64,000 bases of DNA from Actinomycetota bacterium (GCA_035288045.1 DATEBA010000012.1:15979-79978); one strand, 5' to 3'. Positions 13,025 to 58,587 are shown, counted from the stretch's first letter. Program-made: numbers and translations. The notes: generated by a model not told the origin, from the letters alone.

Positions 13025-14098
13025 TTGGCGATGCGGGCAGAGGTCGCGAAGGAAGCAGTCACCCGCGTCGTCTTGGGTGCTCTTGTAGCCGCGTCGCTAC
13101 TCACAGGCACCCAGGCGTCGGCGGGCCTGCGCTGCGCGGGCAAGGCGGCCACGATCGTCGGGACGCGCCATTCGGACTCGATCGCGGGAACACCCGGGCC
13201 CGACGTCATCGTGGGACGCGCCGGGCACGACGTGATCATCGGCCTCGGGAGCCGCGACCGGATCTGCGGTGGACGAGGGGGCGACAGGATCCGGGCCGGA
13301 AGGGGTCCCGATCGCGTCTTCGGAGAACGGGGGAACGACCGGATCCGCGGCGCCGAGGGAGAGGACCTGGTCGAGGGCGCGGCGGGTCGCGACCGCGTGG
13401 TCGGAGGCTCCGACGCCGACACGATCTCGGGCGCCGAGGGCGCCGACCGGCTGCTCGGCGGCTCGGACGCGGACCGCCTCTTCGGCGGCCGGGGGGAGGA
13501 TCTTCTCGTCGGTGGTCCCGGGAAGGACTCCTTGAGCGGCGGCGGGAACGCCGACCGGTTCGGGGGCGGACCGGGCTCGGATCTCCTCGGGGACGAGCGG
13601 AGCGAGCAGGGCGACGATGTCGGCTTCGGCGGCAAGGGCCGGGACGTCATCGCACTCGGTGAGGGCGACGATGTGCTGAAAGGAGGGCTCGGCCGGGATC
13701 AGGCGTCGTACTACGTCGCTGCGGCCGGGATCCGAGCGAACCTCGACCGCGAGGTTGCGCGCGGCGAGGGTTCGGACCGGCTCGTCGGGATCGAGGACGT
13801 CATCGCGTCCCGCTTCGGGCACGACGACGTGCTCATCGGCGACGAGGGACCGAACGCCCTATCGGGCGGAGACCTGGCCGCTGCCGGCGCCGACGTGATC
13901 GGCGGTAGAGAGGGACGAGACGACCTTGCCGGGGGGTTCGGGGGCGACACGATCCGCGGGGGCGCGAACGGCGACCGGCTCTTCGGGGGAGGAGGCGACG
14001 ACCTCCTGAACGGCGGTCAGGGCGCCGATCGGCTCAGGGGAGGCCTGGGTGTCGACGAGTGCGTGCGGGGCGAGCTCATCATCGGGTGCGAGGTCTAG
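13025..14098 (+). CDS. Secreted protein with hemolysin-type (RTX-like) calcium-binding nonapeptide repeats; paralog family member 1
   Basis: Signal peptide, then many G-x-D-x-[IL]-x-G-G repeats and a C-terminal Cys pair (ECVRGELIIGCEV). Paralogous to 44743..45780 and 58012..58587. Confidence 0.7.
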   Translation: MAMRAEVAKEAVTRVVLGALVAASLLTGTQASAGLRCAGKAATIVGTRHSDSIAGTPGPDVIVGRAGHDVIIGLGSRDRICGGRGGDRIRAGRGPDRVFGERGNDRIRGAEGEDLVEGAAGRDRVVGGSDADTISGAEGADRLLGGSDADRLFGGRGEDLLVGGPGKDSLSGGGNADRFGGGPGSDLLGDERSEQGDDVGFGGKGRDVIALGEGDDVLKGGLGRDQASYYVAAAGIRANLDREVARGEGSDRLVGIEDVIASRFGHDDVLIGDEGPNALSGGDLAAAGADVIGGREGRDDLAGGFGGDTIRGGANGDRLFGGGGDDLLNGGQGADRLRGGLGVDECVRGELIIGCEV

Positions 14099-14550
14099 CC
14101 GAGCCTGATCTGCTCCACCTCTATCGTCCCGCTATCGTCTTGGGTTAGGAGGACGCCCTCGCACTCTCCGAGCGGCTCGATCTCTCGGTCGGTCAGGCCG
14201 AGCACCGCCTTCTCGATCAGCGGGGTGTGACCGACGGCGAGACCGCGGCCTCCTTCGGGGACACGGGAGAGGAGCTCGCGGAGGACGGCCGCCAGCCGGG
14301 AAGGAGTGCGGTCTCCGTCGCTCTCGCCGACCAGACCCGGGACCACGTCGTGGGACGGTAGCGGTAGGCCGCGCCCTCGGAGCAACCACGCGACCGTCTC
14401 CGCTGCCCGCCGGGCGGGGGAGGTGAAGACTGCGGAGTAGCCACCGGCAAGGGTCCGGCCGACGTCCTCGGCCTGCGCACGGCCCTCGGGCGAGAGCCGG
14501 TCCTCTTCTGGGTCCCGCGCGGCATGCCGCCGCACCTCTAGGGAGCGCAT
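14095..14550 (-). CDS. Histidine phosphatase superfamily protein (SixA/phosphoglycerate-mutase-like)
   Basis: The RHAA motif (RHG variant) at the N-terminus and the overall size fit a SixA-like protein. Confidence 0.6.
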   Translation of the reverse strand: MRSLEVRRHAARDPEEDRLSPEGRAQAEDVGRTLAGGYSAVFTSPARRAAETVAWLLRGRGLPLPSHDVVPGLVGESDGDRTPSRLAAVLRELLSRVPEGGRGLAVGHTPLIEKAVLGLTDREIEPLGECEGVLLTQDDSGTIEVEQIRLG

Positions 14551-14579
14551 CGGGTCACCACCTCCCGGGTTCGCGTATC

Positions 14580-15035
14580 ATGCCGCAATCCATGAGGACC
14601 AAGCTCGCTTCCACCCTGCTCGTCGCCCTGCTAGCTCTGGGCACGGCCGCCTGCGACAAGGCCAAGAGCCAGCCAGACAGCGACGGCACGATCACCACGC
14701 CCCCGGAGGAATCGGTCGGCCCGATCGGGACGACGAAGGACGAGTTCCGCTACCAGAACGCCGGCCTAGTAGCGGTCCTCAAGTTCCGGGGGAAGGGCGG
14801 GACGCTCCAGGTCGAGAACGACTCCGGGTTCGACCTCCCGACGCCCGGCTTCTACGTCCTTGACGCGCGTGACGGCCACGAGATCGAGGGGACGGTAGAG
14901 GGATCCGAGCCCGTTCCCGACGGGGAGAAGAAGACCTTCCAGATCTCGGTCGGCGAGGGCTTCGAGCTCGAGAACGTCGGTCTCGTGATCTTGCTCATGG
15001 GCGAGGACAACTACGGCGCCTTCGTGAACGTCTAG
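14580..15035 (+). CDS. Putative secreted lipoprotein, function unknown
   Basis: Signal peptide ending LALGTAAC (lipobox-like Cys). Confidence 0.5.
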   Translation: MPQSMRTKLASTLLVALLALGTAACDKAKSQPDSDGTITTPPEESVGPIGTTKDEFRYQNAGLVAVLKFRGKGGTLQVENDSGFDLPTPGFYVLDARDGHEIEGTVEGSEPVPDGEKKTFQISVGEGFELENVGLVILLMGEDNYGAFVNV

Positions 15036-15102
15036 CGGGGAGTTGCGCCGGGGGTTGCGCCCTGAATAGACTCCCCTCGTCTGTTCCTGAGAGGGGCCTG
15101 GG

Positions 15103-44347: not shown

Positions 44348-44369
44348 CTCGTGTAGCATTGCCCCACCC

Positions 44370-44441
44370 GGGCGGTTAGCTCAGGGGGAGAGCGCTTCCT
44401 TGACGCGGAAGAGGCCAGAGGTTCAAATCCTCTACCGCCCA
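44370..44441 (+). tRNA. tRNA-Val (anticodon GAC)
   Basis: Acceptor GGGCGGT/ACCGCCC and anticodon stem-loop CTTCC-TTGACGC-GGAAG. The Gly-Cys-Val order is typical of actinobacteria. Confidence 0.85.
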
Positions 44442-46194: not shown

Positions 46195-46237
46195 TTGACG
46201 CGGAAGAGGCCAGAGGTTCAAATCCTTTACCGCCCAC
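46087..46237 (+). repeat. att-like repeat 1 of tRNA-Val(GAC): ~105-bp element arm plus 43-bp copy of the tRNA 3' half (46195..46237)
   Basis: TTGACGCGGAAGAGGCCAGAGGTTCAAATCCTTTACCGCCCAC matches the tRNA from the anticodon loop to the 3' end with 1 mismatch. The preceding arm is about 75% identical to the 47821..47930 arm. Confidence 0.8.
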
Positions 46238-47930
46238 CAAGGCCGACGGCGCAATCCCGGATCGCTCAGGACGCCAGATACCGGGCCAGGGCGAACCTCC
46301 GGCCACTACCCTCTTCGCGCGATCCTGCCGCGACGATCCTGCCGTCGGCCTGGATGGCGAGAGCGAAAGCCGTGGCGAACCCACCTCCGAACCTGGTGGT
46401 TACCTTCCCGTCCGACCCAAACGTGTCATCGAGGATCCCGTCAGTCGCGTACCGAGCTAGGGCGAACCGGCCCTCCGTATCGTTCGAAACTTCACCCGAC
46501 GCCACGATCCTGCCGTCGGTCTGGATGGACACCGCGTGAAGGCCGGCATCGCCTGTGGCAAAACGGGTCAGGACTTCGCCGTCCCCTCCAAATGTCTCGT
46601 CGAGGCTGCCATTCCTCCTGTGGCGGAAGAGGGCGAAACCCGCTCCTCCACTCGACCCCCCCACAACGACCTTGCCGTTGGGCTGGATTGCGAGTGCGGA
46701 AGCGCCGCCGTCGGGGTTCAGGACCTTCCCGTCACCCCCGAAGGTGGCATCCAGCGTCCCATCGACGTTGTACCGAGCAAGGGCAAGAGCCGAGCCCGGA
46801 AAGGTGAAGAGGCCCCCCGCCACGACGATCCTGCCGTCAGACTGGACAGCCAAGGCGTCCGCTAGGGCCTCCCCGCGAAATCTCGTCCTCACCTTCCCGT
46901 CGCCCCCGAACGTAGCGTCCCGCGTGCCATCGGTGTTGTACCGGGCGAGGGCGAATCCGGCTCCCTCGAGGGCGAAGGAGACTCCGGCGGCCACGATCCT
47001 GCCGTCGGATTGGATGGATACCGCCGAGGCGGAGGCACCGCCGGCGGCGAGTCTGGTCCGAACTCGTCCGTCACCGCCGAACGTGGCGTCGAGGGTACCG
47101 TTGGTCTTGTACCGGGCGAGGGCGAAGCCGCCCGAGAATTCACCCGCTGCAACGATCTTGCCGTCGGTCTGGATGGCGACTGCGGAAGCGGTGCCGCCGG
47201 GGGTCAGGACCTTCCCGTCGCCCCCGAAGGTGGCATCCAGCGTGCCGTCGGTGTTGTACCGGGCCAGAGCGAATGCCTCGCCTACACGCGATCCCTCGGC
47301 TCGACCCGCCGCAACGATCTTGCCGTCGGCTTGGATGGCGACCCCTGAGGCTAGTGCGGAGACTGTCCGCCGAGGCCAGGTCAAGACCTTCCCATTGCCT
47401 CCGAAGCTCGTATCGAGGTCGCCCGCCGCTGCTGCCGCCGAGGGAGCATTGATCGACAACATGAAGATGAGCGTCGCACTTGCCGCGAGGATCCGAGCCT
47501 GCATCGTGTCAATCTCTCTCTCGAAGTTGCGTCATTAGACCTTCGCCTTCGACACCGGGTCAAGGGTCGGTCCGAGCTGGAGCTCGCGGGAAACTTTGCG
47601 GGAGTGGGAGTAGGAGCCCGCTTCGCCTCTCGCGAACTGGTGGCCGAGTGAATCCGGTGGCTACCGTGGCGAGCTCCACATCAGCCAAGCGATCTACCGT
47701 CGTCCGGTGCCACGGCTGCCTCTGCGAGCCGCTGTCTTCTTCGGCCGCCCCTGCGGTTGATCATTGCGGACCGGCCTGGCCTTGAGGGTGGCCAGTTTCC
47801 TGCTCTTGATTCTGGTCAACCTCTGGTCAAGGAGCCGACGGAATCAGACGGTACTCATCAGTACTCGTGTGGCGAGCGAGAATGCCCGCGAGCAGCAGAA
47901 GTCCTGGTCATGACGCTGTGCGGCACCTCC
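46238..47930 (+). mobile_element. Putative degraded integrated islet D (second tandem unit at tRNA-Val(GAC))
   Basis: Bounded by repeats 1 and 2; single cargo gene (delta-60 repeat protein). Confidence 0.45.
46266..47504 (-). CDS. Secreted delta-60-repeat protein (GxLDxxFGGDGKV...QxDGKIV repeats)
   Basis: Signal peptide followed by about eight ~50-aa repeats with the consensus G-T-L-D-A-T-F-G-G-D-G-K-V ... A-x-Q-x-D-G-K/R-I-V-A-A-G ... ALARY. Confidence 0.7.
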   Translation of the reverse strand: MQARILAASATLIFMLSINAPSAAAAAGDLDTSFGGNGKVLTWPRRTVSALASGVAIQADGKIVAAGRAEGSRVGEAFALARYNTDGTLDATFGGDGKVLTPGGTASAVAIQTDGKIVAAGEFSGGFALARYKTNGTLDATFGGDGRVRTRLAAGGASASAVSIQSDGRIVAAGVSFALEGAGFALARYNTDGTRDATFGGDGKVRTRFRGEALADALAVQSDGRIVVAGGLFTFPGSALALARYNVDGTLDATFGGDGKVLNPDGGASALAIQPNGKVVVGGSSGGAGFALFRHRRNGSLDETFGGDGEVLTRFATGDAGLHAVSIQTDGRIVASGEVSNDTEGRFALARYATDGILDDTFGSDGKVTTRFGGGFATAFALAIQADGRIVAAGSREEGSGRRFALARYLAS

Positions 47931-47973
47931 TTGACGCGGAAGAGGTCGAAGGTTCAAATCCTTCACCGCCCAC
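47821..47973 (+). repeat. att-like repeat 2 of tRNA-Val(GAC): arm plus diverged copy of the tRNA 3' half (47931..47973)
   Basis: TTGACGCGGAAGAGGTCGAAGGTTCAAATCCTTCACCGCCCAC has 5 mismatches to the tRNA. The arm TCTGGTCAAGGAGCCGACGGAATCAGACGGTACTC... parallels 46087... Confidence 0.7.
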
Positions 47974-48985: not shown

Positions 48986-49077
48986 TCGGATAGCTATTCG
49001 TTCTTGAGCTGCGCATCCCCCCCCGAGTTCCTGACTGGCTCCGGGTGGGGAGCCGGCTCCTGGGAGAGGGGGGATCG

Positions 49078-49689: not shown

Positions 49690-49909
49690 TCCTACGAGGG
49701 CAGTTAGCACCTGGGATCCCGGGCCTCGTGCCCGGGATCCTGGCCTTGTGGGCGGCCCTCGATTAGGCCGGGAATCCCCCTTGCGCGTCGGATTCCCCGG
49801 TGCAAGACTGAGAGGTCCGAGCTGCGAGGCTCGGCGACCGACGGCGGCGCGACGCGGGCACGCGCCGCCGTCTCCTATGGGTGACGAGGGGTGATATCTT
49901 GCCGCCCAC

Positions 49910-49984
49910 GGGCGCGTAGCTCAGCGGGAGAGCGCTTGCTTCACACGCAAGAGGTCGCAGGTTCAAAACCTGCCGCGCCCACCA
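49910..49984 (+). tRNA. tRNA-Val (anticodon CAC), CCA encoded
   Basis: Acceptor GGGCGCG/CGCGCCC, anticodon arm CTTGC-TTCACAC-GCAAG and T-arm GCAGG-TTCAAAA-CCTGC. Confidence 0.85.
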
Positions 49985-49994
49985 GACAGGATCG

Positions 49995-50280
49995 GAGGCT
50001 CACAAGGGATTGGCGAAGAGCTCCCGGCCGTGGGTCCCATCGTTGGCGGCGAAGAAGAGGGTCCCAGCGACGTTCGCAAGGGACTTCGGGTGCGAGCCCC
50101 CAGATTCCGGGTAGATGTCGTTGACCTGGACTGTGCCGGCCTCGGTTCCGTCGCTCTTCCAAAGCTCGTAGCCGTCCGTGCCGTCGTCGGCAGCGAAGAA
50201 CAGGGTCCTCCCGACGTTGGTGAGGAACCTTGGGTACGACCTCGCCGATCCGGTTTCTGTCCCGTGTATTCCGGCGATTC
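49995..50280 (-). pseudogene. Remnant of an ELWxxDG-repeat protein gene (no start, truncated)
   Basis: The DNA is alignable, at roughly 75% identity, to the repeat-coding part of 51852..53045 (compare 50150..50230 with 52650..52740). No complete ORF. Confidence 0.5.
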
Positions 50281-50490
50281 ATGGAGCGTGCGCCCGAGTA
50301 CAGCTTCGAGCCCCACGCATACCTCGCGGACGACGAGCATGGAGTGGAGCTCCAGAAATCCCACTACAGGCGGGGCGACCAGACGCTGGACACAAACGAC
50401 ACGTTCGTCTGCCACTTCCGAGACGGCAAGGTCACAGAGACGTGGCTGTCGACAGACGATCCGTACGGCGTGGACGAATTCCTCGGCTAG
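50281..50490 (+). pseudogene. C-terminal fragment of a SnoaL/NTF2-like protein
   Basis: ...TFVCHFRDGKVTETWLSTDDPYGV resembles the C-terminal strands of SnoaL-like polyketide cyclase/NTF2 folds. Only about 70 codons, with no N-terminal half. Confidence 0.35.
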
Positions 50491-50511
50491 CCGCGGGACC
50501 ATCGAGTTGCT

Positions 50512-51843
50512 CTACTCTCCGCGGGCGCTGTGCTCGACGATCGACGCGAGATCGACCCTGGCCAGGTAGGAGTCGAAGCTACCGGCGTTCGACTCGCCCG
50601 CGAAGGTGCCCGAGGTGTCGCCGATCACGAACAGATCGCCGGCCGCGCCCCATCCCCAGCCCACCGTTTCCTCTTCGTCGGTTCCGAATTCGAGTGTCCA
50701 TTGAGCGTCGCCCGTCGTCGGCTCGAACGCCCGGGCGAAGACGTCGTCACCGCCGAGGTTCGTTTGGCCATGGAAGGCGCCACCTGTGGTCCCCACGGTC
50801 ACCACGTCGCCCCGCACCAGCGTCGCGCCCGCGGACGCATCGACGGCCCTCGTGCCGAACTGCCTGGTCCAAAGCCCGACGCCTGCCGGCGAGAATCCGC
50901 GGATGAAGGCGTCGGACCTACCCCTTCTCTCGAACCCGCGGAAGGATCCCCAGGTCTGGCCCGACACGTACACGCCGCTCGCATCGGCCGCCAGCCCCGA
51001 CCCGATGTCGGCCCTGTTGGTACCGAACTGGCGCAGCCACAATCTCCTCCCGTCTCGAGAGAACAGGGCGAGGAACGCGTCCAAGTCGCCGTGAGAGCGC
51101 GCCCCGGGAAGGTGACCGTCGGTGAAGCCGTTCACGTAGATGCCCTGTGGGGCGATCATCGCCGCCCACGCTTCCTCATACCCCCGCCCGCCGAACTGCC
51201 GCAGCCACTCCATCGCTCCCCGCTTGTCGAAGCGGGCGAGGAACAAGTCGGCGCTGCCATGGTTCACACGGTTCGCGAACGCGCCGAAGGTGTACCCGAA
51301 CACGAAGACGCCCGACCGGTCCACCACGATGCCCGCCGCGTAGTCGTCCTCGTCCGTTCCGAACTGCGCCATCCACCGCTCGTTCCCCTCGAGGTCGTAC
51401 CTCGCGACGAACGCATCGGCTCCCCCCGCGCTGGTCTGACCGGGTAACGAACCCGTCGTGGCACCGTCCACGTAGAGGCCAGACGCGTCCGCGCGCGCGG
51501 CGCCGACCTCCTCCCACCTCCTCGTGCCGAACTGCACGGTCCAGACCTCCGAGCCCCGCGCGTCGGTGCGCCTGATCCATCCGTCCGCGTCCCCCTCGCT
51601 GGCCTGCCCCGGGAGGGCGCCGTAGGTCAGACCCCCCGTGAAGACGTCCCCCCCGAAGGAGTCGACCGCGTAGGTGCCGAGCTCCGGAGCCGGAGAGCCG
51701 AACTGATCGACCCAGGCCACGGACCAGGTGATCGCCGCGCTCGGGGGCCCGAGGAGACCAACGAGAACCGCTAGCAACGCAGCGAGCGGGAACGCCGGGC
51801 CGCCCCAGCGACCGGGCGCTCCCGCGGCTCGAGACAGCGTCAT
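50512..51843 (-). CDS. Secreted beta-propeller repeat protein (SBBP-like repeats: W..QFGT...D.A.GV..D.SGVYV.G.T.G...G)
   Basis: Start at 51843 (MTLSRAAG... signal/TM), then about eight ~48-aa repeats. Confidence 0.65.
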   Translation of the reverse strand: MTLSRAAGAPGRWGGPAFPLAALLAVLVGLLGPPSAAITWSVAWVDQFGSPAPELGTYAVDSFGGDVFTGGLTYGALPGQASEGDADGWIRRTDARGSEVWTVQFGTRRWEEVGAARADASGLYVDGATTGSLPGQTSAGGADAFVARYDLEGNERWMAQFGTDEDDYAAGIVVDRSGVFVFGYTFGAFANRVNHGSADLFLARFDKRGAMEWLRQFGGRGYEEAWAAMIAPQGIYVNGFTDGHLPGARSHGDLDAFLALFSRDGRRLWLRQFGTNRADIGSGLAADASGVYVSGQTWGSFRGFERRGRSDAFIRGFSPAGVGLWTRQFGTRAVDASAGATLVRGDVVTVGTTGGAFHGQTNLGGDDVFARAFEPTTGDAQWTLEFGTDEEETVGWGWGAAGDLFVIGDTSGTFAGESNAGSFDSYLARVDLASIVEHSARGE

Positions 51844-51851
51844 CGACCTGG

Positions 51852-53045
51852 TCACGGAATGGTCACGAAGTCGTCCAGGAACGACCGCGCGATCGCGATG
51901 TCGTTCCTCCACGCCCAGGATATGCCGTGGCACTGTCCGGTCTCACCGTCGCCTACGGCGACCGCGACGTTGGAGTTCCCGAGGAAGTAGGGCGCGCCCG
52001 CATCTCCGCTGCAGACGCCCCCCTGTCCGGTCGCGGTCGAGTTGATCTGCAGCTCGATGGTGCCCGGGTCGATCGCCGCGATCTGGGCCGTCGCCCACCG
52101 CCGCGCTCCGTCGAACCAGTAATCGCACGGCCCAGAGCCCGAGCAGTCGGCCTCGACGCCGTAGCCGACCACCGTGAGCGACTGGCTCTTCTTCACCGAC
52201 TCCAGCTGGTCGAGCGTAGGCAGCCGGGCCGGAGTGATGCCTCGAACGGGCCTGGCGAGGATCGCAACCCCGTAGAGGTTGAAGCCGTTGGTGAAGTTCA
52301 CCTCCGGGTGCAAGTACCCGGCCTCGACGGTTCGGAGGGTCGACGTCTCTGGATCGAGCACCGGGTCGAACGAGACCACCGCCCGACCGCCGATCGACTG
52401 GGCGTATTCCACGCCGCCCGGGCACTCCGGAACCGTGAGGAACGCGGTCGAGGAGATCAACACACCCGAACAGAAGGCGAAGACCTCACCGTCCGGATCC
52501 TCCAGCACCATCACCCCGACGTTCGGGTCGCTCTTCCACAACTCGCGGCCAGTGATGCCGTCGTCTGTGGCGCGGAAGAACAGGGTCCCTCCAACGTTGA
52601 TGAGCGTGCCCGGGTACGAGCCCCCCAATCCTGGGACGATGTCCTTCACTTGCACTGTCCCGGCCTCGGTCCCGTCGCTCTTCCACAGCTCGGGGCCGCT
52701 GATGCCGTCGTTGGCGCGCAAGAACAGGGTTCCCCCGACGCTGGTGAGGAGCCTTGGGCGGAACCACGGACCCGACATGGCCGATCGGGGGTTGATGTCC
52801 TTCACCAGGGCCGTACCGGTTTCTGTCCCGTCGCTCTTCCACAGCTCGGGGCCGCTGACGCCGTCGTTGGCGCGCAAGAACAGGGTCCCTCCGACGTTGG
52901 TGAGGCTGCCGAGGTGCGAGGTCGTCGATCCGGGGTTGATGTCGCGGACCAGGTAAGGACTCCCGGCGGCGCTTGCAGAGGGCGCGGCAGGAAGCGATGC
53001 CACGAGACAGACGAGGATCAGCGCCGCCTTTCGTACGGTTCGCAT
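51852..53045 (-). CDS. Secreted protein: three ELWKSDGT-type repeats + trypsin-like (S1) domain with all three catalytic residues substituted
   Basis: Start at 53045 (MRTVRKAALILVCLVASLPAAPSASA) with AGGAG RBS. Repeats GTLFLRANDG(V/I)SGPELWKSDGTE x3. The S1 fold landmarks CSGVLIS...LTVPEC (His->Glu), GVAILARP (Asp->Gly) and CSGDAGAP (Ser->Ala) are all altered. Confidence 0.6.
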   Translation of the reverse strand: MRTVRKAALILVCLVASLPAAPSASAAGSPYLVRDINPGSTTSHLGSLTNVGGTLFLRANDGVSGPELWKSDGTETGTALVKDINPRSAMSGPWFRPRLLTSVGGTLFLRANDGISGPELWKSDGTEAGTVQVKDIVPGLGGSYPGTLINVGGTLFFRATDDGITGRELWKSDPNVGVMVLEDPDGEVFAFCSGVLISSTAFLTVPECPGGVEYAQSIGGRAVVSFDPVLDPETSTLRTVEAGYLHPEVNFTNGFNLYGVAILARPVRGITPARLPTLDQLESVKKSQSLTVVGYGVEADCSGSGPCDYWFDGARRWATAQIAAIDPGTIELQINSTATGQGGVCSGDAGAPYFLGNSNVAVAVGDGETGQCHGISWAWRNDIAIARSFLDDFVTIP

Positions 53046-53184
53046 CGCTCGGCTCCTCGTTGGCCACCGGCAGGGGGAAGATTTCGACAAGCGAGACTCT
53101 ACTGATGTCGGAGGAAGCAGCGCAAGGCTCTGGCTGATTCGCCGATAGATACCTTGGGTTCGCGTCCTCTGTCCCCCCTGACGC

Positions 53185-53238
53185 GATAACCTTCTCGATT
53201 CGCTCGCCTCTGACGTGCATAATGTCCAAGGCGCACAG
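53185..53238 (+). repeat. Left part of the att arm of the tRNA-Val(CAC) islets, interrupted by IS30
   Basis: GATAACCTTCTCGATTCGCTCGCCTCTGACGTGCATAATGTCCAAGGCGCACAG parallels 58794..58846; the last 24 bp are identical. Confidence 0.75.
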
Positions 53239-54693
53239 ACCAGGTTCAACGGGTCCTCGCAACACCGGCTGGCTGGACTGAGAGTAGGTGATCGTTCAAA
53301 GCTTCGGCGGGCGTGCGCCAGTCGAGAGTCTTGCGCGGCCGAGTGTTCAGCGCCAGGGCGACGGCTTCGAGATCATCGGCGTTGTGTTTGCTCAGGTCGG
53401 TTCCTTTGGGGAAGTACTGGCGCAGCAGTCCGTTGGTGTTCTCGTTCGTGCCGCGCTGCCAGGGGCTGTGCGGGTCACAGAAATAAACCGCGAGACCGGA
53501 GCCGATCCGCAGTTCGGCGTGTTTGGCCATCTCCTTGCCTCGGTCCCAGGTGAGGGAGCGCCGAAGCTGTGCGGGGAGTGTCGTGATCGTGGACGCGATA
53601 GCGTCGCGGACGGCCTCGGCCCCGTACCCGGCGAGCGCCGGCCCGTTCTTGACTCGTGGCTCGGTGCCGTAGCCCTCCAGGCGGGGTAGGTGCAGCAACA
53701 TTGTGAACCGGGTGGTTCGCTCGACCAGCGTCCCGATCGCGGATCGGTTCAGCCCGATGATCAGGTCCCCTTCCCAGTGCCCGGGCACCGCACGATCCGC
53801 GACCTCGGCTGGGCGGGCGCTGATCATGACTTCGGGTGTGATGAAGCCGTCGCGGCGCTGTCGGGAACGAGCTCGAGGCACGCGCAGTGCTCGACCGGTG
53901 CGCAGACACGAGACCAGCTCCCGGCGCAGCGCCCCGCGGCCCTGCACGTAGAGCGCCTGGTAGATCGCCTCGTGTGAGATCCGCATGGACCCATCATGAG
54001 GGTGCTCGACACGCAGCCGGTTCGAGATCTGCTCCGGGCTCCAGGACTTGGCCCAGCGCCGGTCTTGGCGGCGACCGTGCCGACGACCGATCCAGCGCAC
54101 CTCGGGTCCGGGCACGAGCTCACCGTCGGGTCGGGTTATCGAACCGGCGAGGCGGTCCTGCACGTACTCGCGCAGCTGCTCGTTCGCGGCGAGCTTGGAG
54201 ACCTTCGGGCGGCTGGCTCGCCGCTCTGCGTGCCACTGCGCCGTCGACGCCCGGTACTCCAAGCGGTACGTGCGAGTCGAGGCGTTGCGGCGGAGCTCCC
54301 GCGAGATCGTTGACGGCGACCGACCCAACCGTCGGGCGATCGCGCGCACCCCGACGAGCTGGGCGTGCAGGAGCGCGATCTCCTCGCGTTCAGCAAAGGA
54401 CAGGTAGCGACCAGACAAGTGGACTCAGCGAGATGGGTGGCATCCCGCCAGCGTGACGGAACCACCTCGCCCCGACCGCCAGCGACACGCCGGCCTCGCC
54501 GGCGGCGTCCTCACTGGATGCGCCACGCGCTATCGCCTCCCAGAACGGCACTCGGTCTTCGCGCCGAGCCGTCGAAGGCCGCCCCGGGGACCACATCTGA
54601 CCGCGCATCGCACGGATCGCCTGCTGACGCTCGCGAACACCCATCGCGCACCACCTCCGTCTCGAGGTGTTGCGACGACCACTTGATTCCGCC
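53239..54693 (-). mobile_element. IS30-family insertion sequence, apparently intact (1455 bp)
   Basis: 28-bp imperfect terminal inverted repeats (ACCAGGTTCAACGGGTCCTCGCAACACC vs reverse complement of the right end; 19/28 matches, the inner 10 identical). Flanked by a 3-bp CAG direct repeat (53236-38 and 54694-96). The uninterrupted target sequence is visible at 58823..58860. Confidence 0.75.
53246..54418 (-). CDS. IS30-family DDE transposase
   Basis: N-terminal HTH (LSFAEREEIALLHAQLVGVRAIARRLGRSPSTISRELRRN) and a DDE domain (HWEGDLI, DRGKE, NENTNGLLRQYFPKGTDL), 390 aa. Confidence 0.9.
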   Translation of the reverse strand: MSGRYLSFAEREEIALLHAQLVGVRAIARRLGRSPSTISRELRRNASTRTYRLEYRASTAQWHAERRASRPKVSKLAANEQLREYVQDRLAGSITRPDGELVPGPEVRWIGRRHGRRQDRRWAKSWSPEQISNRLRVEHPHDGSMRISHEAIYQALYVQGRGALRRELVSCLRTGRALRVPRARSRQRRDGFITPEVMISARPAEVADRAVPGHWEGDLIIGLNRSAIGTLVERTTRFTMLLHLPRLEGYGTEPRVKNGPALAGYGAEAVRDAIASTITTLPAQLRRSLTWDRGKEMAKHAELRIGSGLAVYFCDPHSPWQRGTNENTNGLLRQYFPKGTDLSKHNADDLEAVALALNTRPRKTLDWRTPAEALNDHLLSVQPAGVARTR

Positions 54694-54757
54694 CAGCGCA
54701 TAGACCCGGGTGCTTCACACGCAAGAGGTCGCAGGTTCAAAACCTGCCGCGCCCACA
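54694..54757 (+). repeat. Right part of att arm plus direct repeat 1 of the tRNA-Val(CAC) 3' half (54712..54757)
   Basis: CGCATAGACCCGGGT + GCTTCACACGCAAGAGGTCGCAGGTTCAAAACCTGCCGCGCCCACA is identical to tRNA positions 49938..49981. Confidence 0.85.
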
Positions 54758-54773
54758 AGGGTCGCGAACGAGC

Positions 54774-55363
54774 ATGTCAGAGGGTGTGTGTAGCCTCTTC
54801 GGGTCGGCGCGGTGCGCGAGCACAGCGTCGGTTGAGCGGCTGATCGAGTTCCTGGAGTCGGGCGGGATGCCCACGGCGATCGAGAACGTCAAACGCGAGC
54901 ACCTCGAGAGCTCATCGAGCACTTGGTCGAGACGAGGGCGCCGGCGACGGCCTCGAACAGGTTCCGAGCCGTGAAGGGGTTCTTCGCGTGGGCCACGCGC
55001 GACGAGGAGGTGATCGCCGAGTTGCCGATGCGGAACATGGCTTCCCCGCGGGTCCCCGAGTCGCCGCCGGACCTGGTCAGCGAGGACGAGGTGCGCGCGC
55101 TGCTCGCGACCTGCCGCGGCAACGCGTTCGACTCTCGGCGCGACGAGGCGATCATCCGGCTCCTCTACGACACCGGCGCCCGGCGAAGCGAGGTCGCGAA
55201 CCTGCGCCTCGACGACGTCGACGCAGCCCTCCCGCAAGGCGCGAGGGCCAAACGGAGGCTCGCCGGATGGCTCGGACCGAGAAGCTCTCGCCGGAGCAGC
55301 GATCCCTACGCGCGCGTCTCGCTGCGCACGCGCTTCACTCCTCGCGGGACTCTCGCGAGCTAA
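54774..55363 (+). pseudogene. Tyrosine recombinase (phage-integrase family) pseudogene
   Basis: The N-terminal SAM-like/core-binding region and catalytic box I (RDEAIIRLLYDTGARRSEVANLRLDDVD) are present. A 20-bp tandem duplication (54897..54936, GAGCACCTCGAGAGCTCATC|GAGCAC...) shifts the frame. The downstream box II/Tyr region is absent. Confidence 0.65.
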
Positions 55364-55826
55364 CAGCCAAGGCTCGCGAGAAGTTCCTCGACCGCTTCGC
55401 GCGAGCCGTCGATCCCGACGGCGTCCTCGATCCGGCAGAGCGCGAGAGGCGCGCCGAACACGCGCGGAAACGGTACTTCCTCGAGCTCGCGTACAAGAGC
55501 GCGAAGGCTCGACGGCGAAGGCGGCGCGGTGAGCGAGTCCGCGCGCGCTCGGTGGCTGCGCCGGCTGCGGACCGGCGAGGGCCTCGACGGCGGCTGGTCC
55601 GGGGTCATGTCCGTGGCGAACGGTCTCGCGGCCGCTGGCCTCCCGGAGTCGTTCACCCGCGACGCGCTGCTCGAGCCCTCGAACGTCGGCGCTCGCTACG
55701 TGAACTTCAGCTCGACCGGGAAGGCGAGGCCGACCTCTACGCGCGAGCGTTTGGTCCGCGAGGCGCTTCGGAAGGTGCGAGCGCGGCAGGCTCGAGCTCG
55801 GCCGGTTCGCGACCGAGGCGAGGTGA

Positions 55827-56468
55827 TTGGAGGCGCTGGCCGCGATCCGCTCGGCGATCGACGCCGTTCCCGAGCGATGGCGGTGGACCGCCGGCGCGAC
55901 CGATCGCGCCGTCCTGCTCGCCCTGGTAAGGATCGCGGAGCGGTTCGGACGCCTCGAAGTGGGCGCGTCCGTCCGCCAGGTCGCCGACGAGGCAGGGGTG
56001 GGCGCCGGCAGTGCGTCGAGGGCCCTCGGCCGGCTGCACGACTTCGTGCGGGTCGTCGAGCGCGGCGTCGGCACGCGGGCGTCCACGGTTCGTCTCGAGC
56101 GGGTCGAAGTGTCACGGCGCCGTGACGCACCCGAGCGGCAAGAAGTGGAACCCTCAGGTTCTGTCCCTTCGTGGACAGTAGAGGGTTCCAGTCTTTGCCG
56201 CGACGTGTTCTGGTGGGGCGCGCTGGGCAAGCGGGCCGGACACGCGTTCGAGTTGCTAGGGGTCGAGATGATCCCGACCGAGCGGGTCGCCGGCGTCGCC
56301 GGCCGCGGCGATGAGCAGCGGCGCCGTCATGGGAAGCGGGCGCGCGGGCGCCGGGAGTACCTCGAGCGGCGAAGGGTGGAACGCAAGGACGAAGGCCGAC
56401 GCATCGTGGCGGCCGTGCTGTCAGAGGCGGACGCGATGCTTGCGCCAGGCGCGAGGCGAGGTCGCTGA
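55827..56468 (+). CDS. Winged-helix/HTH protein (candidate element regulator or replication-initiator-like), TTG start
   Basis: AVLLALVRIAERFGRLEVGASVRQVADEAGVGAGSASRALGRLHDFVRV reads as a MarR/Rep-like wHTH. Frame choice is uncertain because of overlapping GC-rich ORFs. Confidence 0.35.
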   Translation: MEALAAIRSAIDAVPERWRWTAGATDRAVLLALVRIAERFGRLEVGASVRQVADEAGVGAGSASRALGRLHDFVRVVERGVGTRASTVRLERVEVSRRRDAPERQEVEPSGSVPSWTVEGSSLCRDVFWWGALGKRAGHAFELLGVEMIPTERVAGVAGRGDEQRRRHGKRARGRREYLERRRVERKDEGRRIVAAVLSEADAMLAPGARRGR

Positions 56469-56745
56469 TGGAGGAGCTGTCGAGCGAACGGGACCGGGCG
56501 GTGATCGAGCGCGCGGTCGAGCAGTTCGTCCTGGCGGTGGTCGAGGGCCGGTTCGTGAACGCCGACGAGGCTGCCGCCGTCGCCTTCGGGGTCGCTCGCC
56601 TTGCCGAGGCCGAGGACCCGAGCACGAGGTCGCGGTGGTGAGGGCGATAGCAGCCCTTGAGCCCCAAGCATCGGCTCTACGGGTGCGGGCGACCGTGCCT
56701 GGACGGCGCCTCGGGACGGTCCTGGGGACGCGAAGTTAATCGGGT

Positions 56746-57036
56746 GTGAGGGGGGAGATCATGCAGAGGACGACGAGCGAGCTGGCCGACCTATCGGACG
56801 AGGAGCTCGAGACCCTGCGGGACGGGCTCGCCCACGACGTCAGAACCGGCGACGCCGACGTCCGGGCTCGCCTCGAGAACGCCGAGGACGAGATCGCGCG
56901 CCGCCAGCGGGAGAGCGAACGAGAGGCGGCCGCCTCGCAGGAAGGCGAGCGCCGGCTCGAGGACGCCAAGAAGATCGAGACGGCGACGGCTTCGTGGACC
57001 GGGGCGCGTTCCTCGACTTCGATAGGTGGGTGTTGA
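56746..57036 (+). CDS. Small acidic coiled-coil hypothetical protein
   Basis: Probable start at 56761 (MQRTTSELADLSDEELETLRDG...). No recognisable domain. Confidence 0.3.
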   Translation: MRGEIMQRTTSELADLSDEELETLRDGLAHDVRTGDADVRARLENAEDEIARRQRESEREAAASQEGERRLEDAKKIETATASWTGARSSTSIGGC

Positions 57037-57315
57037 GCGAGATCGAGTGCGTGCTTCGGCTCCGCAGCTCCGACGTCGTTCGGGTCGAGGTCACCGAAGG
57101 CACCGGACAGGCGTTCATAGCCTCGTAGGCGGCCGCAGGGCTCGGGCGTGGTACCGCGCGACTCAGGTGGGGGTTTCGACGGTTTCGCCGGGAACGAGAA
57201 AAAGCGGGGCCTGGTGGGCCCAGCTAAGAGTGTCGCGGCGCCGCGACACTTCAAAGGCGGCAGCGACGGTCCCGCACCTCGGCCGAGTGGTAGGCGGTGT
57301 TGAAGCGCGGGCGCT

Positions 57316-57331
57316 GGTTACCTAGGTAACC
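57316..57331. repeat. Perfect 16-bp palindrome GGTTACCTAGGTAACC
   Basis: Exact dyad in the non-coding stretch of islet B, upstream of the secreted-protein gene pair. Confidence 0.8.
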
Positions 57332-57544
57332 ACCCCACACCCGCCAGGCCCGGGCGAGCAGGCGGGCCTCGACGAGGCGACGGTCATTGACTCCGATGTC
57401 GACGAGCTTCGTCGAGCCCATTGTCCGGACCTCGGGCAATGGACCGGTCGCCTCCAGCCTTCGCGATCTCAACCGTTCCGCTGACCCTCGTCGACGACCC
57501 TCGGCGAGCCTGCCACCGGGGGGGTTGACAGGGCCTTTGTCGTT

Positions 57545-58015
57545 GTGCTAGGGACCGAGATGGACGTGGTTAAGCGTGCAGGAATCGCTCTTGTGCTCTC
57601 GGGCTCCATCGCGTTCGTCGGTACCCTCGTCGGTGCAGCGGCTCCGGGAGGCGTCTCGCCCGGCGCCTATCCGAAAGTCGCTGTCGATCAGGAGACCGGC
57701 CTGGTCACTCCGGCCGAAGTTGGGGAGGTAGAGCCTTGCCCAGAGAACGGCCTCGTGCCGGCCGGTAGCACCTGCCAGCTTCTCGCGATTGGTAACGGGG
57801 AATACAGCTGGCACGTCCTTGAAGCGGCCGAGGCGGCCCCTCCATGCGAACGAGCTACGGCCCCATCGGGGACAGATCCGTCAAGCTGCACAGTCCTCAG
57901 AGTCGAGCCGAGCAGCGTGGGTGATTCGGCGCTGCTGGCTTTCACAGCTTCGAACGGTGATGTGGTGCGGGTTTGGGTCTTCCCGGGGGGAAGACAAATC
58001 GTGTTTGACTCATGA
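57545..58015 (+). CDS. Secreted hypothetical protein (Cys-containing, 156 aa)
   Basis: Signal peptide (AGIALVLSGSIAFVGTLVGAAAP) preceded by a TTGACA -35-like hexamer. Stop overlaps the start of the next gene. Confidence 0.5.
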   Translation: MLGTEMDVVKRAGIALVLSGSIAFVGTLVGAAAPGGVSPGAYPKVAVDQETGLVTPAEVGEVEPCPENGLVPAGSTCQLLAIGNGEYSWHVLEAAEAAPPCERATAPSGTDPSSCTVLRVEPSSVGDSALLAFTASNGDVVRVWVFPGGRQIVFDS

Positions 58016-58587
58016 GGCCGATTCGAATACTGGTCGTCGGTCTGGCGTTGCTGATCGCCACGCCCGTCGCGCTGGCGACGCACACAGTCTCAAACTCATG
58101 CTTCGGCGAAAGCGTTGAGATTCAGGGAACAGACGGCAACGACTCGAACGTACGGGGAGATGGTTCAGCAAACGTGATAGCCATCGGGGCCGGGAGCGAC
58201 AACATCTACTCGCACGGTTCTGGGGATCGTGTCTGCGCCGACGACGACAACGATTACACCGAGGGCGGAAATGGTGCTGATCGTTTGGCAGGAAATGGCG
58301 GAAATGACGGGGTTCTGGGCGAAGACGTCGGCGACACGGAGGTTCAGGGGAATACGGGCACAGATGCTGTAGAGGGGAACGCGGGAAATGACGAGGCCCT
58401 TAGAGGCGGGGGCGGATCAGATAACGTCAATGGCGGGAACGGCGACGACACTCTCTACGATGGCTCAGGTGATGATCTGGTCGACGGCGGACCCGATATC
58501 GACACCTGGAAGCCCTGTCCCGACGGCATAAATGACACGGATGTCAACATCGAGAACTATTTCGTCGCCCAAGACGAGTTCTGTTGA
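58012..58587 (+). CDS. Secreted RTX-like calcium-binding repeat protein; paralog family member 3 (short form)
   Basis: Signal peptide, SCFGESVEIQGTDGND block, G-N/S-G-x-D repeats and C-terminal Cys residues. Confidence 0.65.
   Translation: MRPIRILVVGLALLIATPVALATHTVSNSCFGESVEIQGTDGNDSNVRGDGSANVIAIGAGSDNIYSHGSGDRVCADDDNDYTEGGNGADRLAGNGGNDGVLGEDVGDTEVQGNTGTDAVEGNAGNDEALRGGGGSDNVNGGNGDDTLYDGSGDDLVDGGPDIDTWKPCPDGINDTDVNIENYFVAQDEFC

What the first reader, a model, noticed from the sequence alone, without database searches (positions are those of the whole stretch)
13025..58587. Three-member family of secreted RTX-like Ca-binding repeat proteins, two of them on tRNA-linked islets
13025..14098, 44743..45780 and 58012..58587 share a signal peptide, a conserved post-signal block (C-x-G-x-x-A/V-T/E-I-x-G-T), runs of G-x-D-x-[IL]-x-G nonapeptide-like repeats and C-terminal Cys residues. 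One copy is in the core and two are cargo of different tRNA-Val islets. The pattern suggests an expanding, horizontally shuffled adhesin or S-layer-like family. No T1SS components are adjacent, and the signal peptides imply Sec export.
Basis: seen in the sequence. Interest (0 to 1): 0.6.

Follow-up and report, generated by a model that had tools for sequence, protein, structure and literature searches.

The report
Sec-exported cysteine-capped calcium beta-roll proteins
Three genes of an uncultured actinobacterium encode secreted calcium-binding "beta-roll" proteins of a large, unstudied family that carries ordinary signal peptides instead of using the dedicated secretion machine of classical RTX toxins, and two of the genes sit on small decayed mobile islets next to tRNA-Val genes.

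Summary
A (13031-14098), B (44743-45780) and C (58012-58587) each have a signal peptide, the block C-x-G-x-x-[AV]-[TE]-I-x-G-T (3 hits against 0.0 expected), and RTX nonapeptides matching Pfam HemolysinCabind (2e-42, 7e-21, 9e-6). A and B align end to end, finishing in C-x8-C-E. C shares the N-terminal half only.

The "post-signal block" is better read as the N-terminal cap of an autonomous beta-roll domain with four cysteines. The first two cysteines lie 44 residues apart in 153 of 172 relatives. Cysteine counts are even in 67 of 69. In other Actinomycetota MAGs, mostly Thermoleophilia, the same domain is a C-terminal module on secreted beta-propellers and peptidases, and occurs four times in tandem in one protein.

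The AlphaFold model of A (pLDDT 88) is one long beta-roll, closest to the CyaA RTX domain. I found no T1SS genes near A and no T1SS C-terminal target domain, so Sec export is the reasonable reading.

B and C lie on islets bounded by 46-nt tRNA-Val 3'-half repeats, two islets in tandem per tRNA. The islet next to C's (2a) is precisely absent in some natural contigs.

Adhesin or S-layer function and recent horizontal shuffling are not shown. Overall: a new variant of a known kind, of moderate interest.

The parts
13031..14098 (+). Protein A (355 aa from ATG 13031; 357 aa from TTG 13025). It has a signal peptide, an N-cap block (C37 ... C81), a long RTX beta-roll and a C-cap C346-x8-C355-E. It is the core-genome copy.
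   Evidence: GC3 0.84; AF2 pLDDT 88, a strand every 9 residues from 52 to 347; identical protein in 25 blocks, always between PIG-L and His_Phos genes.
44370..44442 (+). tRNA-Val(gac), last gene of a Gly-Cys-Val tRNA cluster (44156-44442). Its 3' 46 nt (44397-44442) form the left att-type repeat.
44443..46237 (+). Islet 1a (1795 bp, GC 0.62). It carries only gene B and ends in a 46-nt copy of the tRNA-Val(gac) 3' half (46192-46237, 44/46 identical). ARAGORN reads this copy as a pseudo 'tRNA-???' at 46148-46239.
44743..45780 (+). Protein B (345 aa): signal peptide, N-cap (C33 ... C77), RTX repeats and C-cap ...C-HHGEVVSN-C-E. It is the cargo of islet 1a.
   Evidence: GC3 0.67; called as 345 aa in all contigs; a 124-aa module from L045 aligns to B 32-121 at 56% identity and to B 277-345.
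46238..47973 (+). Islet 1b (1736 bp). It carries one gene, a secreted delta-60/DUF5122 beta-propeller protein (46266-47504, minus strand). It ends in a second tRNA-Val(gac) 3'-half copy (47928-47973, 41/46) with compensatory T-stem changes. Its roughly 100-nt right end is 78% identical to that of islet 1a.
   Evidence: D5, D9; TIGR02608 5e-97.
49910..49984 (+). tRNA-Val(cac). Its 3' 46 nt (49937-49982) form the left att-type repeat.
49983..54756 (+). Islet 2a (4.8 kb). Genes: an SBBP beta-propeller protein (50512-51933, minus), an ELWxxDGT-repeat/trypsin-like protein (51852-53249, minus), and an IS30-family element (about 53240-54692; transposase 53246-54418, minus) inserted into the islet's conserved right end. 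It ends in an exact 46/46 tRNA-Val(cac) 3'-half copy (54711-54756). It is precisely absent in contig L009 (blastn junction inside the repeat), and contig L021 has the matching gene order.
   Evidence: L009 joins window 49982 to 54711 inside the repeat; L021, gene order only.
54757..58906 (+). Islet 2b (4.15 kb). Genes: a truncated tyrosine-recombinase gene (54923-55363), several unknown small ORFs, and the upC-C gene pair. It ends in a 45/46 tRNA-Val(cac) 3'-half copy (58861-58906). ThrRS (59416-61335) follows.
   Evidence: Phage_integrase, profile positions 4-50 of 172 only; phrog_1 integrase 2.7e-17.
57545..58015 (+). upC: a 156-aa protein with four Cys and an N-terminal hydrophobic signal or anchor. 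It overlaps the start of C by 4 nt (ATGA). The same pairing is conserved in C's only close relative.
   Evidence: 52% identity, E 5e-29, same 4-nt overlap in L108.
58012..58587 (+). Protein C (191 aa): signal peptide, N-cap variant (C30 ... C75, spacing 45), looser RTX-like repeats, and a different C-terminus (C168 ... C191 as the last residue). It is the cargo of islet 2b.
   Evidence: GC3 0.65; AF2 pLDDT 57, inconclusive.

Best explanation
A, B and C are paralogous members of a large, uncharacterised family of Sec-exported calcium-binding beta-roll (RTX-repeat) proteins of Actinomycetota.

The conserved N block (C-x-G-x-x-A-T-I-V-G-T ... I-C-G, two Cys 44 residues apart) and the C-terminal C-x8-12-C-E are the two caps of an autonomous beta-roll domain with four cysteines. 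This domain occurs in two settings. In one it stands alone directly behind a signal peptide: A and B have the roll lengthened to about 300 residues, and C is a short variant with its own C-cap. In the other it is a roughly 120-residue C-terminal module on secreted beta-propellers and peptidases.

Proposed mechanism (steps 1-5 are inferred, not shown):
1. The chain crosses the membrane unfolded through Sec, because the repeats cannot fold at cytoplasmic Ca2+ levels.
2. Signal peptidase I cuts 2-7 residues before the first Cys.
3. Extracellular Ca2+ drives folding of the roll.
4. Two disulfides (C1-C2 and C3-C4) lock the caps.
5. The product is a rigid, non-enzymatic rod that acts as a structural, binding or stabilising module outside the cell.

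B and C were brought in as cargo of small, now decayed integrative elements that target tRNA-Val genes. Two such elements lie in tandem at each of two tRNA-Val genes. A is a resident core gene.
For: Shown:
- RTX repeats match Pfam HemolysinCabind.
- A and B are colinear over their full length.
- In a 27-sequence alignment, C37, C81, C346, C355 and E356 are invariant.
- C1-C2 spacing is 44 in 153 of 172 relatives, and Cys counts are even in 67 of 69. In GTDB loci the counts are 75 of 81 and 78 of 81.
- 99% of members have a hydrophobic h-region upstream. A small-x-small site lies 2-7 residues before the Cys in 156 of 164, and a Tat-like motif occurs in 1 of 164.
- The AF2 model of A has pLDDT 88: a signal helix followed by an uninterrupted beta-roll. 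The best PDB matches are CyaA RTX (E 2.7e-8), then lipases and serralysins.
- The block occurs 33 times next to a signal peptide and 52 times internally, as a module of median 118 aa. Partner domains include DUF5122, PD40 and NHL-type propellers, an M14 peptidase and a zincin.
- L045 has four tandem complete modules. One of them aligns to both ends of B.
- No T1SS target domain matched. No HlyD or C39 domain is present near A.
- Core genes are those of an Actinomycetota MAG.

Islets:
- 46-nt tRNA 3'-half repeats, 44/46, 41/46, 46/46 and 45/46 identical.
- An integrase fragment.
- Low GC3 of B and C.
- Islet 2a absent exactly at the repeat in L009, and absent by gene order in L021.
Against: - No biochemical data exist for any member.
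- The disulfides are inferred from invariance, fixed spacing and even Cys counts. I could not inspect the model's coordinates.
- Ca2+ binding, signal-peptide cleavage and Sec dependence are inferred.
- The function of the stand-alone proteins is not constrained beyond 'non-enzymatic secreted beta-roll'.
- C matches Pfam only just above threshold (26 bits against a 23-bit cut-off). Its AF2 model is poor (pLDDT 57) and it lacks the C-x-CE cap.
- Islets 1a, 1b and 2b are present in every contig seen, so their mobility is historical at best. Islets 1a and 1b have no integrase remnant.
- B has an RR pair in its n-region (RIRRALAV), so Tat export is not strictly excluded for it.
Confidence: 0.7

Rival explanations
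1. The proteins are cell-surface adhesins or S-layer subunits. The beta-rolls would coat the cell or bind surfaces, and the islet-borne copies would provide surface variation.
For: - The proteins are secreted, repetitive and Ca-binding, like cyanobacterial and proteobacterial RTX S-layer proteins and adhesins (general knowledge; Linhartova 2010).
- All cargo of the four islets is secreted repeat protein, a pattern typical of surface-variation islands.
- Several paralogs per genome occur in related MAGs: 10 assemblies have 2 loci each, even with a very narrow search pattern.
Against: - No SLH, LPXTG, transmembrane or other anchoring domain matched; only repeat families match.
- A and B end immediately after the Cys-Glu cap.
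- They are only 19-36 kDa, small for adhesins.
- The same domain is mostly an appendage of enzymes and propellers, which argues for a general module rather than a dedicated lattice protein.
Confidence: 0.2
2. They are exported by a type I-like ABC system, as classical RTX proteins are, and the N-terminal hydrophobic segment is not a cleaved signal peptide.
For: - RTX repeats are classically T1SS-linked.
- A heterodimeric-type ABC exporter pair lies 8.4 kb downstream of A (22524-26092).
Against: - The N-termini have canonical n-h-c signal peptides across 164 relatives, with a small-x-small site.
- No NCBIfam T1SS C-terminal target domain matched.
- The C-terminus is a conserved Cys-x-Cys-Glu cap, not an unstructured secretion signal.
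- The ABC pair has no C39 or HlyD partner and is separated from A by housekeeping genes.
- Linhartova et al. found no T1SS homologues in RTX-bearing Actinobacteria.
- The module also sits at the C-terminus of proteins that have their own N-terminal signal peptides.
Confidence: 0.03
3. The resemblance among the three ORFs is only Gly/Asp-rich low complexity, with no true homology.
For: The Gly/Asp-rich composition inflates alignment scores. C has only one Pfam stretch above threshold.
Against: - Composition-adjusted BLASTP gives E 4e-35 end to end for A against B, with both non-repeat caps aligned.
- The strict N-block motif occurs 3 times against 0.0 expected.
- Four cysteines are invariant across 27 sequences.
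- The profile-profile match to C starts exactly at its N-terminal Cys.
Confidence: 0.01
4. The tRNA-Val 3'-half copies are remnants of local tRNA gene duplication or rearrangement, not attachment sites of integrative elements. On this reading B and C are ordinary chromosomal genes.
For: Islets 1a and 1b contain no recombinase remnant and are present in every contig seen. None of the 79 related loci shows the arrangement.
Against: - The repeats run from the anticodon loop to the 3' end, which is typical of tyrosine-integrase att sites.
- A truncated integrase lies right after the repeat that opens islet 2b.
- Islet 2a is deleted or absent exactly at the repeat in a natural contig.
- Pairs of islets share conserved right ends next to the repeat.
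- B and C have GC3 0.65-0.67 against 0.80-0.92 for core genes.
- The distal gac fragment carries compensatory T-stem changes.
Confidence: 0.05
5. They are RTX cytolysins or bacteriocins acting on other cells.
For: The family name, and the CyaA RTX domain being the best structural match.
Against: - The match is only to the repeat domain.
- There is no hydrophobic pore-forming region, no acylation-site region, and no toxin or immunity gene nearby.
- The whole mature chain of A is modelled as beta-roll.
Confidence: 0.03

Closest known systems
[quoted passage not shown]
   Same: Both have tandem GGxGxDxUx nonapeptides and a parallel beta-roll fold. Both are organised in blocks, with V-D-L-x-x-G-x-A ... 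I-E-N-V-x-G-S linker segments between the runs of repeats. The top PDB matches by fold and by sequence are 7usl, 7rah and 6sus, followed by lipases and serralysins.
   Different: The proteins here have a cleavable N-terminal Sec-type signal peptide instead of an uncleaved C-terminal T1SS signal. No ABC/MFP genes accompany them. They carry invariant cysteine caps at both ends, and the host is Actinomycetota. The chain would emerge N-terminus first, the reverse of T1SS substrates.
RTX genes noted in Actinobacteria by Linhartova et al. 2010 (PMC3034196)
   Same: That review reports putative RTX genes in six Actinobacteria whose genomes lack T1SS homologues. This is probably the same phenomenon.
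   Different: The genes were only listed. No signal peptide, cap motifs, domain modularity or structure were described. My literature searches found no later characterisation.
Non-catalytic Ca-dependent beta-roll/beta-helix modules appended to enzymes or adhesins (AlgE R-modules, MpAFP region IV)
   Same: Both are short RTX-type modules attached to a functional domain as a Ca2+-dependent stabilising or binding unit. The PDB search recovers 2ml1-3, 2agm and 3p4g.
   Different: Those proteins are T1SS substrates of Gram-negative bacteria and lack the four-Cys caps. Here the partner domains are DUF5122, PD40 and NHL-type propellers and M14, M23 and GH25 enzymes with N-terminal signal peptides.
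Tandem tRNA-targeting integrative elements and their remnants (tycheposons, Hackl et al., bioRxiv 10.1101/2020.12.28.424599; cis-mobilisable elements and additive flexible genomic islands, from my own knowledge)
   Same: Successive integrations at one tRNA gene push older elements outward. Elements are separated by partial tRNA copies, integrases are fragmented, and presence or absence varies among co-occurring strains (one search compared).
   Different: These islets are very small (1.7-4.8 kb). Two consist of a single gene with no mobility gene at all. The cargo is exclusively secreted repeat proteins, the host is an Actinomycetota MAG, and no activity has been demonstrated.

Membership tests
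RTX / HemolysinCabind repeat (beta-roll) proteins | Tandem nonapeptide repeats GGxGxDxUx | tested here: met
   Pfam PF00353: A 2.2e-42 (8 stretches), B 7.3e-21 (6), C 8.9e-6 (1; 26 bits against a 23-bit cut-off). The 9-residue register is visible in the sequence.
RTX / HemolysinCabind repeat (beta-roll) proteins | Right-handed parallel beta-roll fold | tested here: met
   A: AF2 pLDDT 88.1 with a strand every 9 residues from 52 to 347. Foldseek matches CyaA RTX at E 2.7e-8. C: model pLDDT 56.7, inconclusive.
RTX / HemolysinCabind repeat (beta-roll) proteins | Ca2+ bound in the GGxGxD turns, with Ca2+-dependent folding | not testable with these tools
   Inferred from conservation of the Asp and Gly positions only.
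Classical RTX exoproteins (T1SS substrates) | Uncleaved C-terminal secretion signal and no N-terminal signal peptide | tested here: not met
   N-terminal n-h-c signal peptides are present in A, B, C and 164 relatives. The C-terminus is a conserved C-x8-12-C-E cap. No NCBIfam T1SS C-terminal target domain matched at E<=0.01.
Classical RTX exoproteins (T1SS substrates) | Linked ABC transporter, membrane-fusion protein and outer-membrane factor genes | tested here: not met
   A's neighbours are housekeeping genes. The only ABC exporter pair I scanned lies 8.4 kb away and has no HlyD or C39 domain. The islets of B and C contain no transporter. The whole genome was not available.
tRNA-targeting integrative genomic islands | Insertion at the 3' side of a tRNA gene, with a direct repeat of the tRNA 3' part at the far end | tested here: met
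   46-nt repeats at 44397-44442, 46192-46237 and 47928-47973, and at 49937-49982, 54711-54756 and 58861-58906. Identities are 44/46, 41/46, 46/46 and 45/46.
tRNA-targeting integrative genomic islands | Tyrosine or serine recombinase gene next to the att site | tested here: inconclusive
   Only a truncated gene is present, in islet 2b (146 aa; Pfam match covers profile positions 4-50 of 172). None was found in islets 1a, 1b or 2a; 2a has an IS30 transposase instead.
tRNA-targeting integrative genomic islands | Atypical composition and presence/absence polymorphism between strains | tested here: met
   GC3 of B is 0.67 and of C 0.65, against 0.80-0.92 for core genes. Islet 2a is absent exactly at the repeat in L009, and by gene order in L021. 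The islets that carry B and C themselves were present in all contigs seen.
S-layer proteins / cell-wall-anchored adhesins | Cell-envelope anchoring element (SLH, LPXTG sortase signal, C-terminal transmembrane segment or similar) | tested here: not met
   There are no Pfam or NCBIfam matches other than RTX repeat families. A and B end directly after the Cys-Glu cap.
Bacterial lipoproteins | Lipobox [LVI][ASTVI][GAS]C at the end of the signal peptide | tested here: not met
   The residue before the conserved Cys is mostly R, T, S or K, and a small-x-small site lies 2-7 residues upstream. The same Cys block also occurs internally in long proteins.
Tat substrates | Twin-arginine motif [ST]-R-R-x-F-L-K in the n-region | tested here: not met
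   A Tat-like pattern occurs in 1 of 164 relatives. A and C have no RR. B has RIRRALAV, a weak resemblance only.

The most novel reading that the evidence does not exclude
The four-Cys capped beta-roll may be a distinct, Sec-compatible form of the RTX fold. Classical T1SS substrates emerge C-terminus first and nucleate folding at a C-terminal cap. Here the chain emerges N-terminus first, and a conserved, disulfide-stapled N-cap (C-x-G-x-x-ATIVGT ... ICG) would be the folding nucleus for Ca2+-driven N-to-C vectorial folding outside the cell. The module would serve Actinomycetota as a general Ca2+-triggered folding, stability or retention tag for exoproteins such as propellers, peptidases and wall hydrolases. 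The stand-alone proteins A, B and C would be free versions that associate with the same extracellular partners.
Probability: 0.3. Interest if true: 0.65.

Novelty: new variant of a known kind. Interest (0 to 1): 0.4.

Why it matters
RTX beta-rolls are the textbook example of secretion-coupled, Ca2+-ratcheted folding, and the model is built entirely on T1SS substrates that leave the cell C-terminus first.

A large family with the same repeats but an N-terminal signal peptide and invariant cysteine caps at both ends would give a natural test of whether beta-roll folding polarity and capping adapt to the export route. The family comprises thousands of metagenomic proteins, mostly from soil and sediment Thermoleophilia and other Actinomycetota. 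It would also explain the 2010 observation that Actinobacteria carry RTX genes without T1SS.

It defines a domain that Pfam and NCBIfam currently see only as loose repeats, which would improve annotation of many exoproteins in poorly cultured Actinomycetota.

The islet part is ordinary biology. It is nevertheless a clean example of tandem accretion at tRNA genes with population-level polymorphism.

Tried and rejected
- **Alignment-based genome scan.** The full 27-sequence alignment had no stretch conserved enough for the genome scan. I used a 9-sequence N-block alignment instead. Its pattern is narrow ([RSK]C[FA]G[KR][AR]ATIV), so family counts are lower bounds.
- **tRNA or islet linkage as a family trait.** tRNAs lie within 5 kb in 17 of 79 related loci. 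None has a tRNA 3'-fragment repeat bracketing the gene, even with relaxed matching, and the positive control on the window works. Rejected as a general feature. I could not compute a proper genomic background for the 17/79 figure.
- **Close relatives of B and C as evidence of recent transfer.** B has no relative above 39% identity. C has one full-length relative at 53%, on a 1.6-kb contig.
- **AF2 model of C.** With a 4-sequence alignment it gave pLDDT 57, which is not usable.
- **AFDB50 fold search.** The library was not available.
- **PHROGs scan.** Among the small islet 2b ORFs and the two genes between the islet pairs, only the integrase fragment matched.
- **Synteny of A in related MAGs.** tblastn with A's neighbours found no matches in the 79 loci. 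The same search unexpectedly revealed the delta-60 fusions.
- **Alternatives considered and rejected** (see the membership tests): lipoprotein, Tat substrate, T1SS substrate, cytolysin, and a pure low-complexity artefact.

Full report
**1. The observation**

The three ORFs exist as described.
- Gene calls in public metagenome contigs carrying identical proteins place A at 13031-14098 (355 aa, ATG), B at 44743-45780 (345 aa) and C at 58012-58587 (191 aa).
- Each begins with a typical n-h-c signal peptide, followed within a few residues by C-x-G-x-x-[AV]-[TE]-I-x-G-T.
- That strict pattern occurs three times in the six-frame translation of the window, against a mean of 0.0 in 100 Markov-1 simulations. 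It occurs only in these ORFs, each time followed by clusters of G-x-x-G-x-D-x-U-x nonapeptides.
- Pfam HemolysinCabind matches all three (2.2e-42, 7.3e-21, 8.9e-6).
- C aligns with A, B and a family profile from its N-terminal Cys through the repeats (hhalign probability 98.6%, E 6.5e-16), but its C-terminus is different.

**2. The family**

A search of 5.8 billion proteins with A gave 3672 hits.
- Among the best 120, 75 carry the N block after a hydrophobic leader, 37 end in a Cys pair, and 26 have both. Where named, they are called only 'calcium-binding protein' or 'Ca2+-binding RTX toxin-like protein', mostly from Actinomycetota MAGs.
- In a 27-sequence full-length alignment, C37, C81, C346, C355 and E356 (numbering of A) are invariant.
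- Over 172 relatives, the distance from the first to the second Cys is exactly 44 residues in 153. Mature chains with both caps have an even number of Cys in 67 of 69. This is the pattern expected for two structural disulfides.
- The Cys sits at median position 33, and 99% have a hydrophobic stretch upstream.
- The residue before the Cys is mostly R, T, S or K, so there is no lipobox. A small-x-small site lies 2-7 residues upstream in 156 of 164, and a Tat-like motif occurs in 1 of 164.

**3. The N block is a domain cap, not a post-signal feature**

A scan of one genome per GTDB species with the narrow pattern [RSK]C[FA]G[KR][AR]ATIV found 79 loci. Nearly all are Actinomycetota MAGs (Thermoleophilaceae, Solirubrobacterales, Miltoncostaeaceae, Acidimicrobiia), plus two Chloroflexota.
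- Of 85 occurrences, 33 lie directly behind a signal peptide. These are stand-alone proteins, with a median of 350 residues from the Cys to the stop.
- The other 52 lie 100-880 residues into a longer secreted ORF. There the block opens a C-terminal module of median 118 residues.
- The N-terminal partner domains are DUF5122/delta-60 propellers (about 20 loci by tblastn), PD40 propellers, an NHL/lactonase-type propeller, an M14 carboxypeptidase and a zincin. The Pfam column adds M23 peptidase, GH25 lysozyme and PGA_cap.
- One Acidimicrobiia protein (L045) has four complete modules in tandem. Each runs from C-x-G-x-x-ATIVGT through ICGG to C-x-CE, and Pro/Thr linkers separate them.
- One of these 124-residue modules aligns to B residues 32-121 (56% identity) and, separately, to B 277-345, ending exactly at ...NCE.
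- So A and B are the same domain with the middle of the roll lengthened by further repeats and by the V-D-L-x-x-G-T-A ... I-E-x-V-x-G-S linker segments that also separate the RTX blocks of CyaA.

**4. Fold and export**

AlphaFold2 on A with the family alignment gives pLDDT 88.1 and pTM 0.72. The model has a helix at 4-26 (the signal peptide) and then one strand every nine residues from 52 to 347.
- Foldseek against the PDB finds the CyaA RTX domain first (7usl_C, E 2.7e-8; also 7rah and 6sus), followed by family I.3 lipases, serralysins and the Ca-dependent antifreeze beta-helix. A profile search of PDB sequences gives the same list. All of these are T1SS substrates of Gram-negative bacteria.
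- The proteins here have N-terminal signal peptides, and no NCBIfam T1SS C-terminal target domain matched.
- No transporter genes lie in the islets.
- A's neighbours are housekeeping genes. The nearest ABC exporter pair I scanned is 8.4 kb away and has no HlyD or C39 domain.
- The core genes belong to an NCBI 'Actinomycetota bacterium' MAG (HLB61467.1). The thrS-HIT-...-Lip_A_acyltrans-GT4 arrangement fits that phylum.
- Linhartova et al. (PMC3034196) had already noted RTX genes in six Actinobacteria lacking T1SS homologues. I found no later work on them.
- Sec export, SPase I cleavage, Ca2+-driven folding outside the cell and oxidative locking of the caps are inferences from these features. 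They also rest on established knowledge that RTX repeats stay disordered at cytoplasmic Ca2+ levels and that Actinobacteria commonly use disulfides in exported proteins.

**5. The islets**

ARAGORN finds a tRNA Gly-Cys-Val(gac) cluster at 44156-44442 and tRNA-Val(cac) at 49910-49984.

The last 46 nt of each tRNA-Val, from the anticodon loop to the 3' end, recur twice downstream:
- 46192-46237 (44/46 identical) and 47928-47973 (41/46) for gac;
- 54711-54756 (46/46) and 58861-58906 (45/46) for cac.

This defines four islets:
- **1a** (44443-46237): gene B only.
- **1b** (46238-47973): a delta-60 propeller gene only.
- **2a** (49983-54756): an SBBP propeller, an ELWxxDGT/trypsin-like protein, and an IS30-family element inserted into the islet's right end.
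- **2b** (54757-58906): a truncated tyrosine recombinase right after the repeat, small unknown ORFs, then upC and C.

Within each pair the islets share a roughly 100-nt conserved right end next to the repeat. The distal gac fragment has compensatory T-stem changes, so it derives from another functional allele. B and C have GC3 of 0.67 and 0.65, against 0.80-0.92 for surrounding genes and 0.84 for A.

In metagenome contig L009, islet 2a is missing exactly. The contig matches the window at 47429-49982 and at 54711-64000, at 99.8-99.9% identity, with the junction inside the repeat. Contig L021 shows the matching gene order. Islets 1a, 1b and 2b are present in every contig seen.

This is the picture described for successive integrations at one tRNA gene, with decay of the older elements, as for tycheposons.

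It is not a property of the protein family. tRNAs lie within 5 kb in 17 of 79 related loci, but none has a tRNA-fragment repeat around the gene. B and C also have no near relatives elsewhere that would document recent transfer.

**6. Function**

Nothing but beta-roll is present in A and B. No anchoring domain, catalytic domain or pore-forming region matches.

The commonest setting of the domain is as a C-terminal appendage on secreted propellers and hydrolases. I therefore favour a Ca2+-dependent structural, binding or stabilising module, with the stand-alone proteins as free versions.

Two local observations fit an association with partner proteins:
- B lies next to a stand-alone delta-60 propeller, the domain it is most often fused to elsewhere.
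- C is translationally coupled to a small secreted Cys-containing protein, and this pairing is conserved in its only close relative.

An adhesin or S-layer role is not excluded, but it has no specific support.

**7. Verdict**

It is wrong or unproven on what the N block is, on adhesin or S-layer function, and on horizontal shuffling as a family trait.

The proteins are a new variant of a known kind: RTX beta-rolls with Sec signal peptides and cysteine caps, forming a modular domain not captured by Pfam or NCBIfam. Interest is moderate (0.4). The most novel surviving reading is a reversed-polarity, N-cap-nucleated beta-roll used as a general exoprotein module, with probability about 0.3.

Noticed in passing
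window 44370-47973 and 49910-58906: Each of two tRNA-Val genes is followed by two tandem islets separated by 46-nt copies of the tRNA 3' half. Within each pair the islets share a roughly 100-nt conserved right end next to the repeat (46079-46175 vs 47814-47910; 53189-53238 plus 54690-54710 vs 58797-58860).
   Followed up: yes
window 49983-54710; L009, L017, L021: Islet 2a (4.7 kb) is exactly absent, at the 46-nt repeat, in contig L009 (the same JGI contig as L017). Contig L021 shows the matching gene order. The surrounding sequence is 99.8-99.9% identical, so this is a natural presence/absence polymorphism.
   Followed up: yes
window about 53240-54692: An IS30-family element (transposase 53246-54418, minus strand; 21-nt inverted repeats at 53246-53266 and 54666-54686) has inserted into the conserved right end of islet 2a, splitting it.
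   Followed up: partly
window 46266-47504 (-), 50512-51933 (-), 51852-53249 (-): All identifiable islet cargo encodes repeat or beta-propeller proteins: delta-60/DUF5122, SBBP and ELWxxDGT/trypsin-like. The delta-60 protein has a visible signal peptide. In other genomes, DUF5122 and other propellers are fused to the same beta-roll module found in B.
   Followed up: partly
window 57545-58015 and 58012-58587; L108 3-850: C overlaps by 4 nt (ATGA) with an upstream gene for a 156-aa signal-peptide protein with four Cys and no family match. The same gene pair and overlap occur in C's only close relative (52-53% identity).
   Followed up: partly
L045 3420-6176: An Acidimicrobiia MAG protein (918 aa) has a PD40 propeller, a Ser/Thr-rich linker and four tandem complete four-Cys beta-roll modules. 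This is the clearest evidence that the module is autonomous.
   Followed up: partly
window 46148-46239: ARAGORN's 'tRNA-???' (2-nt anticodon) is not a gene. It is the right end of islet 1a joined to the tRNA-Val(gac) 3'-half repeat.
   Followed up: yes
window 47928-47973: The distal tRNA-Val(gac) fragment differs from the functional gene by compensatory changes in the T stem (GGTCGAAGG/CCTTCACC against GGCCAGAGG/CCTCTACC). It therefore derives from a different functional tRNA-Val allele.
   Followed up: no
window 44470-45780: The longest ORF containing B (436 aa from TTG 44470) starts right after the tRNA and is stored as such in one JGI record (P0128). The 345-aa form starting with the signal peptide is the call in all the long contigs examined, and is the plausible gene.
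   Followed up: partly
L079 1329-3350: In a Solirubrobacteraceae MAG, a tRNA-Val(gac) is followed directly by a delta-60 propeller fused to the beta-roll module. This echoes the window's tRNA-Val(gac)/B/delta-60 arrangement, but no tRNA-fragment repeat is present.
   Followed up: partly
window 54923-55363; L009 2572-3162: The integrase remnant of islet 2b is called as 130, 146 or 196 aa in different contigs. The contigs differ by a single indel over 9.3 kb, so this is a decaying pseudogene with strain-specific frameshifts.
   Followed up: no
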